A program made the position numbers and the translations under genes. From a virus (lineage: Duplodnaviria > Heunggongvirae > Uroviricota > Caudoviricetes): DNA of 7,043 nt. Positions 1-6,602 of the stretch are shown here, piece by piece. The stretch lies in the IMG/VR virus record IMGVR_UViG_2651869755_000013, one strand, 5' to 3'. Position 1 is the first letter of the stretch, and every line of letters starts with the position of its first letter. The notes under the pieces are model-generated. The model did not search any database. It had not been told where the DNA came from and worked only from the letters and a program-made list of their open reading frames with translations.

Positions 1-248
1 TTCGTGCAGTCTGTCTCGGAAAGAAAAACTTTATGTTCTTTGGCAGCGATCACGGCGGCGAGCGTGGAGCACTGTTGTACGGGCTGATCGGCACCTGCCG
101 TCTGAACGGTATCGATCCGGAAGCGTATCTGCGCCATATCCTGAGCGTACTGCCGGAATGGCCTTCCAACCGAGTTGACGAACTCCTGCCATGGAACGTA
201 GTACTCACCAATAAATAAGCGTCAATACGGTGCTCCGTTGACGCTTAC
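1..248 (+). mobile_element. IS66-family insertion sequence, right-hand terminal portion (partial; element continues upstream of the window)
   Basis: Transposase C-terminal ORF ends at 218. Sequence 242-248 is CGCTTAC, the reverse complement of the GTAAGCG terminus typical of IS66-family inverted repeats. Homology to phage gene C begins immediately at 249. A 9-bp hairpin (217-225 / 238-246) sits inside the terminal repeat. Confidence 0.7.
3..218 (+). CDS. IS66-family transposase (TnpC-like), C-terminal fragment; 5' end lies outside the window
   Basis: Open frame runs from the window edge to TAA at 216-218. The translation (FGSDHGGERGALLYGLIGTCRLNGIDPEAYLRHILSVL...VDELLPWNVVLTNK) matches the conserved C-terminal motifs of IS66-family transposases as I recall them (GSDxGGER, KLNGxDP, ELLPWN). 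Confidence 0.8.
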   Translation, partial: RAVCLGKKNFMFFGSDHGGERGALLYGLIGTCRLNGIDPEAYLRHILSVLPEWPSNRVDELLPWNVVLTNK

Positions 249-1972: not shown

Positions 1973-2175
1973 AACCTCACTCCCAGCGGACGACGGCGAC
2001 GTCGGGTTGTCCCCAGTACCGACTCCGCATCATTGATCGCCCGGTTAAGCTCATCCAGAGAAGCCTCCGTATATTCAATTCTGCGACCATCTTTCTGGAC
2101 AGACACCACCCGTTTACCGGTTAATAAATCAAGGCGCGCCTGACGCAGCGCCTGCAGTTCAGCGACTGTAACCAT
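1969..2175 (-). CDS. W: Head-tail joining / head completion protein (lambda gpW-like), 68 aa
   Basis: A 68-aa ORF between terminase large subunit and portal, in the same position and of the same size as lambda W, with a GKRVxxVQKDGRR motif and Arg-rich C-terminus. SD GGAGGAG lies upstream of the ATG at 2175. It overlaps the A 3' end by 17 nt and the B start by 4 nt. Confidence 0.85.
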   Translation of the reverse strand: MVTVAELQALRQARLDLLTGKRVVSVQKDGRRIEYTEASLDELNRAINDAESVLGTTRRRRRPLGVRL

Positions 2176-4087
2176 TCACTCCTCCGGACAGCTTCGCTGC
2201 CAGTTCTTTAAGGGTTGGCCGGGTCGTCTCTTCTTCCCGGGATTTTGCCAGTACAGCCAGATCAAGCTGCCAGCGTTGCACGGACACACGTAATGCCGCA
2301 TAGGCATACACCAGGCAGTCCAGCGCTTCGTTACGCCGCTTTTTGTTATCCCACAGCAGACGCATCTTTCCTTTTTCCCACTTCTCCACAAGCTCTTCCG
2401 CGACCAGTTGCTGCGCCTCTGTCTGCGAAAAAATCTCCGGATCATCAGGAAAACGGATGGCATACGACGTGGCTTCATCCGCAGGAGTGGGATCGGCTTT
2501 CATACGGGCATAGAGAATTTCTTTTGCGGTGTCCGTCCCCACTTCACACAGATACACGCCCCGCTGATTGCGGGTTTTCGGCATGGTGATCACCGGCTTG
2601 CCATAGACAGATGCGCCTTTTACCGGCAGCACCCGGAAAACACCGTGTTTTTTTGACCTCTGATAGACAATTTCACCATCGATCCCCCCGGTGTCCCAGC
2701 AGACACGGGAAATGGTCATTTCGGTTCCGTCTGCATGGCAGTATTTTTTGTTGATCGCCGCATCCACACGTAACAGCGTCTCTTCCTCATCGGGACGGCC
2801 CATAATGATGATTTTATCCACCAGAAAAGCTTCCTCTCCCGGTGCCCATCCCCAGACATACATCTCAAAACGGTTTCGCTGCGAGTCAATGCCCGCCGTC
2901 AGATAAACCACCCGGGCTGGCACCGCCGCCGTGTAATGCACGACCTTATCCATCAGTACCTGGTGATCGAGTTTTTCGCCCACGGCCTCTTCCCAGGTCT
3001 CGCCCAGCGTGGTGTTCACAAAGGTTTTCAGGCCGTTGGGATCTTTCAGTGCATCCAGCCAGTCATAGACTATCTGTACCCAGGTGGTGAACGGACTGTA
3101 CGCCGTCCAGATATGGAACGTGATGGAGCGCGGCGGCGGAATTTCATTATCCGCGGCGCTGAAAAACGTCAGACCGTCACGGGTCCACATCCCCGTGTTT
3201 TCACAGATCCACCGCCCGTTGCTCTGGTCAAGCTCAGACTGATGGATCACGCAGCCATGATGTTCACAGAGGTAGAAAACGCTTTCGGGGCTGTCCTTCT
3301 CCCATTTAAGGCCAAAAGGCGTGGATTCATCGCCAAATTTCAGATACTGCTCCTCCCCACAGTGTGGGCAGGGCACATAAAAACGCATGAAATGCGCCGA
3401 CTCGTTGGCCGCTTTTTCGATCTGGCAGGTGCCTTTGATTTTAGGCGTCGAGCCGCGAATGGATTTGGGCCATACAGAGCCCTCAATACGTTTATCCCCA
3501 AGCAGGGTTGGCGACCCCTCTTTTTCGACATCCGGTTCGAACGAGGAAAGTTCGTCATAGCAGACCACGTCCACGGATTTTTCACGGTAGTTTTTAGCGG
3601 CAGCCCCGCCCAGGCACCAGAAGCCCACGCCCGATGAAAAACGTTTCAGCGTGAGGGTATTATCACGATGTTTACGCCCAAACCACGGTGCAAGATCGAG
3701 TAAAACCGGCACATCCCTGATCGTGGGTTCCACATGAGATTTCATAAAATCTTCAGCAGCAGAATCCGTGGGCTGGAAAAGAAGGCTGTTGCGTGATTTA
3801 TGCTCAATAAAATAAGCCTCCACTCCCAGCAACATCTTTGTATAACCAACACGGGCAGATTTAATCAGATTAACAGTGCGGATCCGGTCATTCCCCATGC
3901 TGTTCATGATGGCAACCTGAAACGGCAGTGTTTCCCACCGCCCCGGGGTGTAAGATGACTCTTTCGGAAGGTAATAATGTCGATCTGCCCACTGAACTGT
4001 CGTCAGAGGGACAGGAATTTTTAGCGCAAGGAGGCCGGTTGCTATCGCTCCTGCAGAATTAGCCGCCCTCAGTTCGTCTGAAATCAT
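2159..4087 (-). CDS. A: Terminase large subunit (lambda gpA-like), about 642 aa
   Basis: Strong lambda gpA similarity from [27 protein letters not shown] through the ATPase and nuclease regions ([74 protein letters not shown]). I place the start at ATG 4087 ([10 protein letters not shown]...), which has an AGGTGG SD 4 nt upstream and gives a 29-nt overlap with Nu1, close to the 26-nt overlap in lambda. The track's longer ORF to 4129 has no SD. Confidence 0.95.
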
Positions 4088-4607
4088 CAATCCACCTGCG
4101 CACATTCTCACCGGCTTCAGAAGCCACATCGGATGCTTTCGCGATTTCAGTTTTCACAGCATCAAGATGTACGGGTGATATATCAGGGTATTTACGCTGC
4201 AGTGTCTGAGGGACACGGACAAGGATCCCTGATATATTCTGTGCCACTCGCTGAAAGATGTAGGTAAATAACTCCGTCTCGAGGACAAGGCCTTCCTCAC
4301 GAGCATTTTTCAGCTCCTGTGCATCGGCCTGTGCCTTCGTCAGTCGGTAACGTTCGTAATCAATGGTGCAGGGCTGAAGGTCTGATTCGCTGGCAGCCCT
4401 CAAATCCTCGATCTCTTTACGGAGTTTTTCGTTTTCAATATCAGCTTCCCTCTGCGCATACCACTGAATGGCAGCAGTTGTATCAAAAACTGATTCAGTC
4501 CCTTTCCCTCCACCAGAAACTAGTGGTAACCCCTGACTCTGCCAGGCGGTGATGGTCCTGACATCAACGCCAAAAATATCGGCCAGTTTTTTCTTATTGA
4601 CGTTCAT
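4059..4607 (-). CDS. nu1: Terminase small subunit (lambda gpNu1-like), 182 aa
   Basis: The translation ([29 protein letters not shown]...GGGKG...[48 protein letters not shown]) matches lambda Nu1, including the N-terminal wHTH region and the ATP-binding segment. A GGGGGAG SD precedes the ATG at 4607. It lies about 170 bp from cosN, as in lambda. Confidence 0.92.
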
Positions 4608-4776: not shown

Positions 4777-4788
4777 AGGTCGCCGCCC
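4777..4788 (-). other. cosN: 12-nt cohesive-end sequence (minus strand GGGCGGCGACCT), the terminase nicking site; cosQ-like flank at about 4789-4823
   Basis: The reverse complement of 4765-4800 reads CGACCGGTTACGGGGCGGCGACCTCGCGGGTTTTCGCT. This contains the exact lambda left cohesive end GGGCGGCGACCT followed by CGCGGGTTTTCGCTATTTATGAAAATTTT, as at the lambda left end, and is preceded by ...GGTTACG as at the lambda right end. Confidence 0.85.
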
Positions 4789-4823: not shown

Positions 4824-4840
4824 ATGATAATTATTATCAT
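4824..4840. promoter_or_regulatory. Perfect 17-bp palindrome ATGATAATTATTATCAT; its core TGATAATTATTATCA matches the Fur-box 7-1-7 consensus TGATAATnATTATCA
   Basis: The 8-1-8 palindrome was verified base by base. It lies about 35 bp beyond cosN on the right-end side of the phage and about 155 bp upstream of the plus-strand RHH ORF. The TGATAA/TTATCA motif recurs nearby (4852-4857, 4956-4961). Confidence 0.35.
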
Positions 4841-4994
4841 CTATATAAGGTTTATCACAACATGTGTGTACGCCATCAAACCACGAGAAATAATCAATTA
4901 TGACGCAGGTATCGTATTAATTGATCTGCGTCAAATTAACGTAAAAGCAACTTCAGATAATACAAATCAGCAACACTGAATATGGGGAAACATT

Positions 4995-5180
4995 ATGTCA
5001 TCAAAGAACAGAACCCGCAGAACAACAACCCGCAACATCCGATTTCCAAACCAGATGATTGAACAAATTAACATCGCTCTTGATCTGAAAGGTTCAGGAA
5101 ACTTTTCAGCGTGGGTTATTGAAGCCTGCAGAAGAAGGCTGTCAACAGAGAGTTCGGGTATGAATTACATAATTAAGTAA
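4995..5180 (+). CDS. Small (61 aa) predicted ribbon-helix-helix (CopG/Arc/MetJ-like) DNA-binding protein, transcribed opposite to the phage late genes
   Basis: ATG at 4995 has a GGGGAA SD-like sequence 6-7 nt upstream. The sequence pattern is a basic N-terminus (SSKNRTRRTTTR), a short beta-strand-like NIRFP, then two helices (NQMIEQINIALDLKG, NFSAWVIEACRRRL), typical of RHH folds. Fold assignment is by eye only. Confidence 0.5.
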   Translation: MSSKNRTRRTTTRNIRFPNQMIEQINIALDLKGSGNFSAWVIEACRRRLSTESSGMNYIIK

Positions 5181-5803
5181 CATGGTGTTCACAGAACACG
5201 CAGTTACCGGACACATCAGTTTTCCATTCGCTCCCTGGCAGTACAGGCTTCCCCTCTGACGGGATAGCCTGAAAAAATAACACAGAAAATTATTTGTTAT
5301 AATTAATATAACTTACTCAAAAAAAAGCGACGAGAAAATCAGCATCAACGAACAATAAGCGCCAATACGTGATAACAAATGGCAGCCATATTTATCTGCA
5401 GTATAAGCAATGGACAGGATAACCACTCCAGAAACCGTCAGCATAAAATCCATTTGAACTTCCCCGGACAAAATCGACTCATCTAAAGATTTACAGCTCT
5501 TTTTATTATCAATATGTTAAAAGTAAAATAAACAGATGTTCAATAACACGAATACAAAAACGTGCTGAAATTCAATGAATCCATTTCTGTGTCATCAATT
5601 AATAGTGATAAACATCCGGCTTCTTCCACCATCGCACCGGACAGGCGACTATGAGGGGACAACGCCGCGCTCCGTTAACGCGGTAAACCCCGGTGTGTGT
5701 CGTTTTTGATTATCCCCGCACACTCGCGCAGAGGAGTCTCCCTGTCGGGCTGCGGTCTCTGTTAATGCGGGGATACGGCGACAATACCGCGCATCAGCAA
5801 AAC

Positions 5804-6277
5804 CTATTTCAGGCACTGAGTGCGGATATAGTCCTGCGCCCCTTCCAGCTGCTTCTGCATCAGCATCAACCGTTCTCTGAGAGTGAAATAATCCCGTTCA
5901 GCGGTGTCTGCCAGTTGGGGGCCGGTTGCATTATCCACGCGGGCGGTGCCGGTGGCTTCACGCACGGGACCTGGACAGGTGGCGTTGATACGCAGGCGCT
6001 TACGACCAGCGGCAACGTCAGCGCGAAGAGTTTCATTTTCAGCTCTCGCATCGGCTAATTCCCTCGAGTATTTTGCATCGAGCGCAGCAACATCGCGCTG
6101 GCGCACCTGCATATCAGTAATGGTTGCGTTCGCCAGCTTCAGTTCACTGGCTTTGTTATCGCGCTGCGCTTTGTAGGTAATCGCGTTATCACGGTAATGG
6201 TCTGTTGCCATCCACAGCGCTCCACAGGCCACCAGCAGAATAACGATAAACGCGGAAAGCATTCGGTTTATGTTCAC
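5804..6277 (-). CDS. Rz: Rz i-spanin (inner-membrane spanin subunit), 157 aa from GTG at 6277 (alternative ATG at 6262)
   Basis: The translation (...[69 protein letters not shown]...[41 protein letters not shown]) is highly similar to lambda Rz, with an N-terminal TM segment. The GTG start overlaps the stop of the upstream small ORF (GTGA). Confidence 0.9.
5866..6051 (-). CDS. Rz1: Rz1 o-spanin (outer-membrane lipoprotein subunit), 61 aa, embedded in the +1 frame of Rz
   Basis: Lies entirely inside Rz in another frame. Signal peptide with lipobox (LPLVVSAC) followed by a Pro-rich mature region ([26 protein letters not shown]), closely matching lambda Rz1. Confidence 0.85.
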
Positions 6278-6405
6278 CCCAGCAGCCCCGACGAAGACAA
6301 CATCATCCAGGCCATGGAAAGAAAAAGAGCAACCAGCATTAGTGAAAATGAAATGCCGACAATTACACAGAGGATCTTCGCCAGCGTTATGAGTTTGTCT
6401 GACAT
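6274..6405 (-). CDS. Hypothetical 43-aa hydrophobic single-TM peptide ([43 protein letters not shown]), translationally coupled to Rz
   Basis: ATG at 6405 is preceded by a strong SD (AAGGGAGGA) at 7-nt spacing. The TGA stop overlaps the Rz GTG start. The gene occupies the position where a lambda-type cassette has its endolysin gene, but it is far too short and too hydrophobic to be one. The track's 73-aa version includes an N-terminal extension with no SD. Confidence 0.5.
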
Positions 6406-6419
6406 GCTTAATCCTCCCT

Positions 6420-6602
6420 TCACGATTTCAACGCAATGACCAGTTTTGCCAGCCCATACAGCATCGGGGACACAGCAACACCGACCGCCACCCACTTAAT
6501 GGCAAAAGCCAGTGCTCTGCTGATGTCATCAGTTACAGGCGCTTTCAGTTCAAGGCCGTTTTTCATAGTCAACCTCAACAGAATTCGTTTATACTTTTCC
6601 AT
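6420..6602 (-). CDS. Hypothetical 60-aa protein with a charged N-terminus and a C-terminal TM segment ([60 protein letters not shown]); candidate holin-like or lysis-regulatory membrane protein
   Basis: ATG at 6602 has an AGGGAGAA SD upstream and is the first gene after the terminator hairpin. Codon usage looks E. coli-like (CTG-rich). The stop is 14 nt upstream of the next ORF's start. I do not recognise similarity to lambda S or phage 21 S. Confidence 0.45.

What the first reader, a model, noticed from the sequence alone, without database searches (positions are those of the whole stretch)
4995..5803. Orphan RHH-type ORF followed by about 620 bp of AT-rich DNA with no ORF of 60 codons or more, in the Rz-to-cos interval
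The interval between Rz and cos is a classic moron site in lambdoid phages (lambda carries bor here). Instead of a bor-like lipoprotein gene there is only a 61-aa RHH-like ORF on the anti-late strand, with no cognate toxin-sized partner ORF downstream, then an AT-rich stretch with no long ORF on either strand. RHH proteins are commonly antitoxins or small repressors, so this may be a solitary regulator, the relic of a toxin-antitoxin pair whose toxin gene decayed, or a region encoding a small RNA or a peptide under 60 aa.
Basis: inference. Interest (0 to 1): 0.45.

Follow-up and report, generated by a model that had tools for sequence, protein, structure and literature searches.

The report
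Conserved late-strand RNA beside ynfO gene
The seemingly empty DNA between the lysis genes and the packaging site of this E. coli prophage holds three things: a small gene of a known but unstudied family (ynfO), a probable 46-residue membrane-peptide gene, and a roughly 180-base structured RNA element that is conserved in hundreds of lambda-like phages, including lambda itself, and that I could not find described anywhere.

Summary
The 61-aa ORF (4995-5180, +) is real, but it is not an orphan. It belongs to the DUF3950 / YlcI-YnfO family, whose members sit next to cos on the anti-late strand of lambda-like phages. Lambda itself carries an unannotated copy at nt 48109-48303c.

An RHH fold is plausible but not proven. 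No toxin relic exists.

The 620-bp "AT-rich spacer" is really two modules.
- 5181-5611 (36% GC) is a moron-like insert. It carries a RefSeq-annotated 46-aa hydrophobic ORF (5313-5453, -) that stays intact in an 82%-identical relative, with dN/dS 0.28.
- 5614-5793 (59% GC) is a discrete ~180-nt element with sharp boundaries. It is always in late-gene orientation downstream of Rz. It occurs in lambda (46868-47034), in DLP12, and in over 160 of the loci fetched here.

The element is non-coding and shows strand-specific RNA constraint: 96-99% of cells are paired, 11-12 pairs carry compensatory changes, and G·U cells outnumber A·C cells 350 to 15. Rfam 15 has no match and the papers searched have no description. 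Some records label it "Rz-like spanin".

My best guess, inferred from placement alone, is a cis-acting 3'-end, processing or stability structure of the late lysis mRNA.

Lacking an ORF of 60 codons or more is not unusual by chance (31% of simulations).

The parts
4777..4788 (-). cosN cohesive-end sequence (anchor, not part of the finding proper)
   Evidence: Exact reverse complement of lambda GGGCGGCGACCT. Nu1 lies at 4059-4607 (-).
4995..5180 (+). ynfO/ylcI-family gene (DUF3950), 61 aa. It is a probable small RHH-like DNA-binding protein, transcribed away from cos on the anti-late strand.
   Evidence: Family matches: Pfam PF13132 9.2e-19, NCBIfam NF041551 above its cutoff, phrog_949 9e-32. 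There are 790 homologues. The N-terminal 50 aa are nearly invariant and the C-terminal tails are hypervariable. AF2 gives helices at 19-32 and 37-55 with pLDDT 83-87. An SD-like GGGG lies upstream.
5185..5199 (.). Short palindromic hairpin just after the ynfO stop. It is a possible weak bidirectional terminator between the convergent ynfO and the 46-aa ORF.
   Evidence: Flagged as terminator-like on the - strand. The number of such sites in the region is no higher than in shuffles, so this is weak.
5313..5453 (-). 46-aa hydrophobic small ORF (RefSeq WP_000347013.1), a probable small membrane protein on the late strand
   Evidence: Annotated in RefSeq. Only 13 close relatives exist, all in E. 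coli. The ORF is kept (45 aa) in strain SHP24 at 82% nt identity, with dN/dS 0.28 against 0.6-1.9 in the other frames. GRAVY is 1.11, with two hydrophobic segments. The sequence GGGGAA lies 7-9 nt before the ATG.
5497..5545 (.). Conserved block upstream of the 46-aa ORF, a possible promoter or 5'-UTR of the moron
   Evidence: 90% identity with SHP24, against about 70% in both flanks. No convincing sigma-70 match was found.
5614..5793 (-). Conserved ~180-nt structured RNA element, read in late-gene sense. Helices in window coordinates: P1 5781-5787/5697-5703; P2 5761-5775/5711-5723; P3 5750-5754/5727-5731 with a tip hairpin 5747-5749/5740-5742; a variable middle hairpin 5689-5691/5655-5657 plus 5680-5682/5666-5668; and a 3' hairpin 5636-5642/5614-5620.
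   Evidence: The boundaries are sharp and the flanks are varied. Covariation is shown, and strand asymmetry. The element is non-coding. It is present in lambda at 46868-47034 and in DLP12. Rfam gives no match. Coordinates were mapped.
5804..6277 (-). Rz (i-spanin) with embedded Rz1 at 5866-6051 (anchor). The RNA element starts 10 nt after the Rz stop.
   Evidence: Pfam Phage_lysis 5e-50; ORF list.

Best explanation
The cos-to-Rz interval of this lambdoid prophage is a mosaic of three independent modules, not a gene plus an empty spacer.

(1) ynfO (4995-5180, +) is a member of the DUF3950/YlcI-YnfO family. This family is a standard fixture next to cos on the anti-late strand of lambda-like phages. 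It most likely encodes a small dimeric RHH-type DNA-binding regulator that is made from the prophage (inferred).

(2) 5181-5611 is an AT-rich moron. It carries a 46-aa two-segment hydrophobic peptide gene on the late strand, convergent with ynfO.

(3) 5614-5793 is a discrete, non-coding, ~180-nt element that works as RNA on the late (pR') transcript. It folds into a long irregular 5' hairpin domain (P1-P3), a variable middle hairpin and a 3' hairpin with an invariant GGAAGAA loop.

The element has no promoter or terminator of its own. It always follows the lysis cassette, often starting within 0-50 nt of the stop codon of the last late-sense gene. Its distance to the next downstream gene is arbitrary. 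For these reasons I think it most likely acts in cis as a 3'-end, processing or stability structure. It would serve as an exonuclease barrier or an RNase III/E-type site, and it would delimit and protect the lysis-gene mRNA.

Shown: the anatomy, the conservation, the non-coding nature and the strand-specific pairing constraint. Inferred: the RHH function, translation of the 46-aa ORF, and the processing/stability mechanism.
For: ynfO family membership is established. Copies exist in lambda (48109-48303c; tblastn 92% over 50 aa; Pfam 1.9e-20) and in DLP12 as ylcI. ylcI appears in a convergent transcription pair (ybcW-ylcI) in K-12 RNA-seq (PMC12288877).

46-aa ORF: it is conserved, with dN/dS 0.28.

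RNA element, distribution. The region matches in 1888 of 5426 complete E. coli genomes, 398 phage records and at least 120 IMG/VR contigs. nhmmer finds it in 167 of the 176 loci held.

RNA element, structure.
- In 84 distinct copies, 98.6% of cells are paired. 11 pairs carry compensatory changes, against 4.7±1.4 in shuffles and at most 7 in slid controls.
- In 21 copies thinned to below 94% identity, 95.8% are paired and 12 pairs are compensatory, against 4.9±1.6 in shuffles.
- Pair 30-80 of alignment A4 appears as C-G, U-G, U-A and G-C; the G-C form is lambda's.
- G·U cells number 350 against 15 A·C. 17 pairs have G·U in 3 or more sequences, and none has A·C in 3 or more.
- The RNAalifold consensus energy is -37.7 kcal/mol on the late strand and -13.3 on the opposite strand.

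RNA element, non-coding and placement. No reading frame stays open across lineages, and lengths of 174-191 nt fall in all three classes mod 3. In 132 contexts the element is always co-oriented with Rz. It starts within 0-50 nt of the last late-sense ORF in about 50 contexts, while the downstream neighbours vary.
Against: - No transcript-end, processing or half-life data were available, so the cis 3'-end/stability role rests on placement alone.
- Single-sequence folding energies are not better than shuffles (z -0.4 to -1.0).
- The copies fall into a few clades, so part of the covariation is inherited rather than independent.
- Simple hairpins would suffice as exonuclease barriers. The invariant single-stranded stretches (AUAAUCAAAAACGAU, CACACC, GGAAGAA) suggest a more specific partner.
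- The RHH fold of YnfO is not statistically supported.
- The coding evidence for the 46-aa ORF comes from essentially one divergent comparison.
Confidence: 0.5

Rival explanations
1. The ~180-nt element is a trans-acting stable non-coding RNA cut out of the abundant late transcript. It would act as a decoy or sponge for a host RNA-binding factor or an anti-phage sensor, rather than as a cis mRNA element.
For: Both boundaries are sharp and the element is independent of its neighbouring genes. The single-stranded segments and the hairpin loop are invariant. The Rz-cos interval is already known to hold a defence-system activator, lambdap79 for Vulcan (10.64898/2026.09.04.749371).
Against: There is no conserved promoter or intrinsic terminator. 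No Hfq-type features are present. A lambda RIL-seq study reported only PreS, LPR2 and 6S as Hfq-bound lambda sRNAs, and none lies here.
Confidence: 0.25
2. ynfO is the antitoxin of a type II toxin-antitoxin pair whose toxin gene has decayed in the AT-rich stretch.
Against: tblastn with DUF1398, lambda p78, p79, Bor and hyp74 finds nothing in 5181-5803; all hits have E>0.4 and are scattered. The DNA downstream of ynfO is a distinct module that has its own conserved ORF on the other strand. The ynfO coding core is bounded by mosaic joints on both sides. DUF1398 is not a known toxin. PADLOC gives no hit.
Confidence: 0.06
3. The GC-rich element is a small protein-coding late gene, as annotated in some phages ("Rz-like spanin" or hypothetical protein).
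For: ORF 5649-5816 (-) matches phrog_6954 "Rz-like spanin" at 1.4e-14. PA2 gp73 and others are annotated across the element.
Against: Lambda, DLP12, 2G7b and ES18 have at most 29-38 stop-free codons in the sense strand. Element lengths differ by 1, 2 and 10 nt. The annotated ORFs use different frames and different ends. The substitution pattern preserves base pairs, not codons.
Confidence: 0.03
4. The element acts at the DNA level. It could be a conserved recombination linker that promotes module exchange at the right end of lambdoid genomes, or a protein-binding site (for example for YnfO).
For: The homology boundaries are sharp, and at least 10 different flank types occur on each side. ynfO abuts the element in about 19 of 132 contexts. 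Lambda escapers of Vulcan arise by recombination with Qin in this interval.
Against: DNA-level selection would not distinguish G·U from A·C, yet the observed counts are 350 against 15, and 17 pairs against 0. Compensatory changes keep the helices intact. The element also occurs without ynfO, in PA2, Stx2 phages and ES18.
Confidence: 0.08
5. The 46-aa ORF is not a real gene. On this view the AT-rich 430 bp is non-functional filler acquired by illegitimate recombination.
For: Only 13 close relatives exist and all are in E. coli. No family matches in Pfam, PHROGs, NCBIfam or PADLOC. No promoter stands out. ORF-free AT-rich DNA of this size is common by chance.
Against: The ORF stays intact with conservative replacements at 18% nt divergence, and dN/dS is 0.28 in this frame only. 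An SD-like GGGGAA is conserved. The upstream block is conserved. The module is retained with both Nu1-type and HK97-type packaging genes.
Confidence: 0.2

Closest known systems
YlcI (DLP12) / YnfO (Qin) family, Pfam DUF3950, NCBIfam NF041551
   Same: The 61-aa ORF is a member. The N-terminal 50 residues are nearly identical, and it has the same position next to cos/nohD on the anti-late strand.
   Different: Its C-terminal tail is specific to this lineage. The tail differs in every mosaic context, giving proteins of 61, 64, 66 or 77 aa. No function is known for any member.
Ribbon-helix-helix repressors and antitoxins (P22 Arc/Mnt, CopG, TacA/AtaR)
   Same: Shared features are the small size, a basic N-terminal arm, an N-[IL]-R-[FW]-P strand motif followed by two helices, and a G-x-S/N-x-S turn. 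The top structural neighbours are RHH antitoxins.
   Different: No significant sequence-profile or fold match was found. There is no partner toxin in the window. The dimer and DNA binding are untested.
Phage mRNA processing and retroregulation structures (T7 RNase III sites, lambda sib) - recalled from established knowledge, not tested here
   Same: These are long irregular hairpins embedded in a polycistronic phage transcript, placed directly after a gene block. They act in cis on mRNA ends and stability.
   Different: The present element is larger (~180 nt, three domains), has invariant single-stranded segments, and is conserved across phages with unrelated head and packaging modules. Cleavage by any RNase is not shown.
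Prophage sRNAs of E. coli in Rfam (AgvB RF02702, AsxR RF02703, Esr41, STnc100) and lambda PreS/LPR2/6S
   Same: They are non-coding RNAs carried by lambdoid prophages at moron sites.
   Different: Those sRNAs lie near Q/pR' or in the early region, are 50-200 nt, and have their own promoters and terminators. None matches this element in Rfam. The element lies after Rz and lacks its own promoter and terminator.
lambda bor / lambdap78 (DUF1398) / lambdap79 moron set in the Rz-cos interval
   Same: The window has the same genomic slot. Lambda and DLP12 have the order Rz, bor, RNA element, DUF1398, p79/ybcW, ylcI, cos.
   Different: The window has lost or never had bor, DUF1398 and p79. It carries the unrelated 46-aa ORF module in their place.
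Type I toxins / small hydrophobic prophage peptides (Hok, Ldr, ShoB etc.) - recalled, for the 46-aa ORF
   Same: Both are short, strongly hydrophobic, prophage-borne, and convergent with a neighbouring transcript.
   Different: There is no sequence match to any family. No antisense RNA has been identified and toxicity is untested.

Membership tests
DUF3950 / YlcI-YnfO family | Match to the family profile above the curated cutoff | tested here: met
   Pfam PF13132 scores 67.5 bits against a cutoff of 25. NCBIfam NF041551 scores 35.2 bits against 30.
DUF3950 / YlcI-YnfO family | Location beside cos or the packaging genes, opposite in orientation to the late operon | tested here: met
   In the window the ORF starts 207 bp from cosN, on the + strand against late genes on the - strand. 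The same holds in lambda, DLP12, 2G7b and HK97-type prophages.
Ribbon-helix-helix (Arc/MetJ/CopG) superfamily | Strand-helix-helix topology | tested here: inconclusive
   The AF2 monomer has an extended N-terminus plus helices at 19-32 and 37-55 (pLDDT 83-87; overall 70). The strand can form only in a dimer.
Ribbon-helix-helix (Arc/MetJ/CopG) superfamily | Significant sequence or fold similarity to solved RHH proteins | tested here: not met
Ribbon-helix-helix (Arc/MetJ/CopG) superfamily | Obligate dimer with an antiparallel beta-ribbon inserted in the DNA major groove | not testable with these tools
   Only single chains can be modelled here.
Type II toxin-antitoxin antitoxin | Adjacent co-directional toxin gene in one operon | tested here: not met
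   There is no co-directional ORF after ynfO in the window and no relic of one. 37 of 54 family contexts have none. 14 have a DUF1398 gene of unknown function.
Any Rfam 15 family (including AgvB, AsxR, Esr41, STnc100, ribozymes, riboswitches) | Covariance-model match | tested here: not met
   The whole window was scanned at E<=1. The element alone and the lambda right end were scanned at E<=10. Only noise hits appeared, far below gathering scores. ARAGORN found no tRNA or tmRNA.
Rz-like spanin / phrog_6954 protein | A conserved open reading frame across members | tested here: not met
   The window ORF hits phrog_6954. However, no frame is open in lambda, DLP12, 2G7b or ES18, and the indels are not multiples of 3.
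Intrinsic (Rho-independent) terminator | GC-rich hairpin followed directly by a U tract | tested here: not met
   No terminator-like site was found in 5614-5793 on either strand. The 3' hairpin is followed by variable sequence that is not U-rich.
Conserved structured RNA (general criterion) | Base pairs maintained by compensatory and wobble changes beyond the controls, on one strand only | tested here: met
   Shown. Caveat: the sequences are related and fall into a few clades.
Bor lipoprotein moron | Sequence similarity to Bor | tested here: not met
   The best tblastn hit with Bor has E 1.5 and lies outside the interval.
Type I toxin (for the 46-aa ORF) | A small hydrophobic toxic peptide with a cis-antisense RNA | not tested
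   Hydrophobicity is shown (GRAVY 1.11). Toxicity and an antisense RNA cannot be tested here. No family match was found.

The most novel reading that the evidence does not exclude
Phage lambda and most lambda-like phages of Escherichia, Shigella and Salmonella carry a previously unrecognised ~180-nt structured RNA in the late operon, directly after the lysis cassette. In lambda it lies at nt 46868-47034, between bor and lambdap78. It also occurs in E. coli K-12 DLP12. It would be a new RNA family with a dedicated function, either in late mRNA processing or as a host-directed decoy. It is currently unannotated, or mislabelled as a spanin.
Probability: 0.4. Interest if true: 0.75.

Novelty: new variant of a known kind. 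Interest (0 to 1): 0.58.

Why it matters
Lambda is the reference system for phage gene regulation, and its late operon is thought to be fully mapped. A conserved structured RNA sits in that operon, and the region that carries it matches in about a third of complete E. coli genomes, often in several copies. It would be a new and directly testable element of late gene expression or of phage-host conflict.

Lambda, K-12 DLP12 and abundant public lambda RNA data make the test cheap.

The work also corrects annotation in two places. The element is labelled "Rz-like spanin" in some phage records. Lambda's own DUF3950 gene (48109-48303c) is missing from the RefSeq record.

It further shows that the Rz-cos "moron slot" is built from exchangeable modules joined at fixed boundaries. 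That is relevant because this slot already holds a defence-system trigger (lambdap79).

Tried and rejected
- Rfam cmscan of the window, the element and the lambda right end gave nothing. ARAGORN also gave nothing.
- Known prophage sRNAs were checked in the papers. AgvB/AsxR lie at the pR' moron site. The Pas sRNAs lie near Q/holin. Lambda PreS, LPR2 and 6S are elsewhere. All were rejected on location and on the lack of an Rfam match.
- Paper searches for ynfO/ylcI/DUF3950, lambdap78/79, DUF1398 and phrases such as "downstream of Rz" found no functional study of the gene or the element.
- Promoter and terminator scans gave counts no higher than in shuffles.
- Single-sequence folding z-scores were not significant on either strand.
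- A candidate pseudoknot between CACACC and the GGUGG loop was dropped, because lambda lacks the loop sequence.
- Mutual information over all column pairs was dominated by a two-clade split, so it was not used as evidence.
- A 10-codon leader peptide at the element's 5' end was rejected, because the start codon is absent in ES18, lambda, 2G7b and L015.
- Resemblances to boxA/boxB (nut-like) and to ops were considered from memory. They were rejected because the hairpin loop varies or is deleted, and the ops-like bases vary.
- The genome-contig scan, meant to show host range, returned mostly lambda control-DNA contamination.
- tblastn for decayed bor, DUF1398, p79 and hyp74 genes in the spacer gave nothing.
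- PADLOC gave nothing for YnfO or the 46-aa ORF.
Full report
**Setting.** The window is a lambda-like E. coli prophage with its late genes on the - strand.
- Portal: 380-1972.
- Head-tail joining: 1969-2175.
- Terminase large subunit: 2159-4129.
- Nu1: 4059-4607 (Pfam 1.4e-85).
- Rz: 5804-6277 (Pfam 5e-50), with Rz1 at 5866-6051.

cosN is at 4777-4788, an exact reverse complement of the lambda cohesive end. The 1.3 kb around the finding is 100% identical in at least 18 complete E. coli genomes. So the finding does lie in the Rz-to-cos interval.

**Check of the observation.** The 61-aa ORF at 4995-5180 (+) exists. No start-to-stop ORF of 60 codons or more lies inside 5181-5803; the longest is 52. 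However, 31% of 1000 composition-matched simulations also lack one, so this alone is not remarkable. The stretch is also not homogeneous. 5181-5611 is 36% GC and 5612-5803 is 59% GC. Comparison with other genomes splits it at exactly that point. The AT-rich part is found with 80% or more coverage in 730 complete E. coli genomes and in one phage record. The GC-rich 180 bp is found far more widely, at 75-98% identity, in Stx phages, BP-4795, lambda-like phages and Salmonella phage ES18.

**The 61-aa ORF.** It is not an orphan.
- It matches Pfam DUF3950 (9.2e-19), NCBIfam YlcI/YnfO (above its cutoff) and phrog_949.
- It has 790 homologues.
- The first 50 residues are almost invariant, while the C-terminal tails differ completely between contexts.
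- The upstream DNA comes in two unrelated types, cos-adjacent or HNH-adjacent. Both have a Shine-Dalgarno-like sequence.

The conserved unit is therefore the coding core itself, bounded by mosaic joints.

Phage lambda has an unannotated copy at 48109-48303 (complement, 64 aa; tblastn 92% over 50 aa; Pfam 1.9e-20). K-12 DLP12 has ylcI in the same place. This means lambda has both bor and this gene, so the ORF does not stand "instead of bor". A K-12 RNA-seq study lists ybcW-ylcI as a convergent overlapping transcript pair, so the DLP12 copy is transcribed (PMC12288877). No functional study of the family was found.

**RHH or not.** The AF2 model, built from 22 sequences, has an extended N-terminus and two helices at 19-32 and 37-55 (pLDDT 83-87; overall 70). 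That is what one chain of an RHH dimer should look like.
- hhalign places NIRFP plus helix 1 on NLRWP plus helix A of Arc, but only at E 0.02 and 2% probability.
- phrog_497 (HicB-like) matches at 0.012.
- No Pfam RHH family and no PDB sequence match were found.

RHH is therefore the best guess, not a result.

**Toxin-antitoxin relic.** This reading is rejected.
- tblastn with DUF1398, lambda p78, p79, Bor and the 74-aa post-Rz protein finds nothing in the spacer.
- Across 54 distinct ynfO contexts, 37 have no co-directional ORF downstream.
- 14 contexts, of the Qin type, have a DUF1398 gene 16 nt after the stop.

DUF1398 has no known function. This recurrent pairing is worth testing, but it is not evidence of a toxin, and the window has no trace of such a gene.

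**The AT-rich module (5181-5611).** RefSeq annotates a 46-aa CDS at 5313-5453 (-). The protein is strongly hydrophobic (GRAVY 1.11) with two hydrophobic segments. It matches no family and has only 13 close relatives, all in E. coli.

In strain SHP24 the module is 82% identical over the ORF. Even so, the frame is intact (45 aa), the replacements are conservative, and dN/dS is 0.28 in this frame against 0.6-1.9 in the other five. An SD-like GGGGAA is kept. A 49-bp block upstream (5497-5545) is 90% identical where the flanks are about 70%.

The module occurs with both Nu1-type and HK97-type packaging genes, always between the GC-rich element and ynfO. I read it as a moron with a real small membrane-protein gene (about 0.7). 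It fills the slot that ybcW/lambdap79 fills in DLP12 and lambda, convergent with ynfO.

**The GC-rich element (5614-5793, late sense): distribution and placement.** This gave 84 distinct copies. Homology starts and stops at the same bases in all of them, while at least ten unrelated flank types occur on each side.

In 132 contexts the element is always co-oriented with Rz and lies 0-1700 bp downstream of it. In about 50 contexts it starts within 0-50 nt of the stop codon of the last late-sense gene (Rz or a 74-aa ORF). What follows varies: ynfO on the other strand, the 46-aa ORF, cos directly, or a 933W-type terminase gene.

A profile of the element finds it in lambda at 46868-47034, between bor and lambdap78 (E 2e-32). 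It also finds an intact copy in K-12-type DLP12 between bor and ybcV (E 9e-37).

**The GC-rich element: non-coding.** Lambda, DLP12, 2G7b and ES18 have at most 29-38 stop-free codons in the sense strand. Lengths range from 174 to 191 nt in all classes mod 3. A 10-nt deletion removes one hairpin tip in Stx2 phages. The "Rz-like spanin" labels (phrog_6954; PA2 gp73) are therefore misannotations.

**The GC-rich element: RNA structure.** RNAalifold predicts four parts:
- a long 5' hairpin domain (P1, P2, P3 and a tip);
- an invariant single-stranded AUAAUCAAAAACGAU / CACACC region;
- a middle hairpin whose sequence is replaced wholesale between lineages while pairing is kept;
- a 3' hairpin with a conserved ...GGAAGAA loop.

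| Measure | 84 copies | 21 copies thinned below 94% identity, including lambda, DLP12, ES18, PA2 and E. ruysiae |
|---|---|---|
| Cells paired | 98.6% | 95.8% |
| Pairs with compensatory changes | 11 | 12 |
| Same, in shuffles | 4.7±1.4 | 4.9±1.6 |
| Same, in slid controls | at most 7 | at most 9 |

One P2 pair occurs as C-G, U-G, U-A and, in lambda, G-C.

The constraint is strand-specific. G·U cells number 350 against 15 A·C cells, and 17 pairs show G·U in 3 or more sequences against none for A·C. The consensus folding energy is -37.7 kcal/mol in late sense and -13.3 on the other strand.

Caveats. The copies fall into a few clades, so the cell counts overstate the number of independent events. 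Single-sequence folding energies are not better than shuffles.

**Is the element known?** Rfam 15 gives no match at E<=1 for the window, or at E<=10 for the element and the lambda right end. There is no tRNA or tmRNA. The prophage sRNAs AgvB, AsxR, Esr41, STnc100 and the Pas sRNAs lie elsewhere, and all but the Pas sRNAs are in Rfam. Lambda PreS, LPR2 and 6S lie elsewhere too. The lambda RefSeq record annotates nothing at 46868-47034. Within the library I could search I found no description. Older subscription literature could not be searched.

**Mechanism.** The following is shown: a discrete, non-coding, strand-specific structured RNA; no promoter or terminator of its own; always after the lysis cassette; independent of downstream genes. 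From this I infer that it acts as part of the pR' late transcript.

The 3'-UTR-like placement favours a cis role at the 3' end of the lysis mRNA, as an exonuclease barrier or an RNase III/E-type processing site (about 0.35-0.4). The invariant unpaired segments fit equally well with a processed, trans-acting RNA that binds a host factor (about 0.25). A DNA-level role is unlikely given the G·U asymmetry. No tool here can decide between these. Lambda and K-12 make the experiments straightforward.

**Verdict.** The gene belongs to a large uncharacterised family that is a normal part of lambda's right end. The "spacer" holds a probable small membrane-protein gene and, more interestingly, a pan-lambdoid structured RNA element that appears to be undescribed.

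Noticed in passing
L132 2710-2904 (-) = lambda NC_001416 nt 48109-48303 complement: Phage lambda encodes a 64-aa DUF3950/YlcI protein about 200 bp from cos. It is not annotated in the RefSeq record (Pfam 1.9e-20).
   Followed up: yes
window 33-218 (+): An IS66-family transposase C-terminal fragment (Pfam PF13817, 1.3e-17) lies just beyond the portal gene, where the related prophage of strain 118UI has the S49 head protease gene. The prophage in the window is therefore probably disrupted by an IS element.
   Followed up: partly
loci L133-L175 (genome-contig scan): Many "genomes" of unrelated taxa (Cohnella, Flavobacterium, Pedobacter, Pseudomonas, Shewanella and others) carry ~3.5-kb or ~48.4-kb contigs holding the lambda right end. 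These look like lambda control-DNA contamination (a sequencing spike-in), not biology. Several ENA YnfO homologues on ~3.5-kb contigs probably have the same origin.
   Followed up: partly
window 5649-5816 (-); L007 1444-1647 (-): ORFs laid over the RNA element are grouped as phrog_6954 "Rz-like spanin" and are annotated as such in phage PA2 and others. The reading frames are not conserved, so this is probably a propagated misannotation.
   Followed up: yes
window 5699 / 5785 (helix P1 of the element): The window's lineage has an A·C mismatch in P1 (CGACAC instead of CGAUAC). Nearly all other copies pair here. This may be a slightly degraded copy in a defective prophage.
   Followed up: partly
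Qin-type contexts, e.g. L042 (ynfO followed 16 nt later by a DUF1398 gene): In 14 of 54 distinct contexts, ynfO (77-aa form) is followed directly by a co-directional DUF1398 (YdfO/YbcV/lambda p78) gene. This suggests a two-gene unit of unknown function. Lambda and DLP12 have the same two genes, separated by p79/ybcW on the other strand.
   Followed up: partly
window 4824-4840 and 4902-4932: A perfect 17-bp palindrome ATGATAATTATTATCAT lies about 40 bp from cosN. A 7-bp inverted repeat GACGCAG...CTGCGTC lies upstream of ynfO. In several IMG/VR phages the RNA element ends only about 15 nt from a similar palindrome, which places it almost against cos.
   Followed up: no
window 6274-6405 (-) and 6420-6602 (-): Two small ORFs lie between the endolysin and Rz (43 aa, phrog_4906; 60 aa, phrog_1115). 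Both belong to families of unknown function. The 43-aa ORF looks like a membrane peptide.
   Followed up: no
L015 5124 and 6074; L037: Two IMG/VR contigs carry two copies of the RNA element about 950 bp apart. This is consistent with a module inserted by recombination between element copies.
   Followed up: no
lambda lambdap79 (L132 2339-2545, +) / DLP12 ybcW: A 2026 preprint reports lambdap79 as the activator of the Vulcan NADase defence system, with escapers arising by recombination with Qin in this same Rz-cos interval. A K-12 study reports PdhR-dependent expression of ybcV and ybcW. The slot is therefore biologically active in lysogens.
   Followed up: partly
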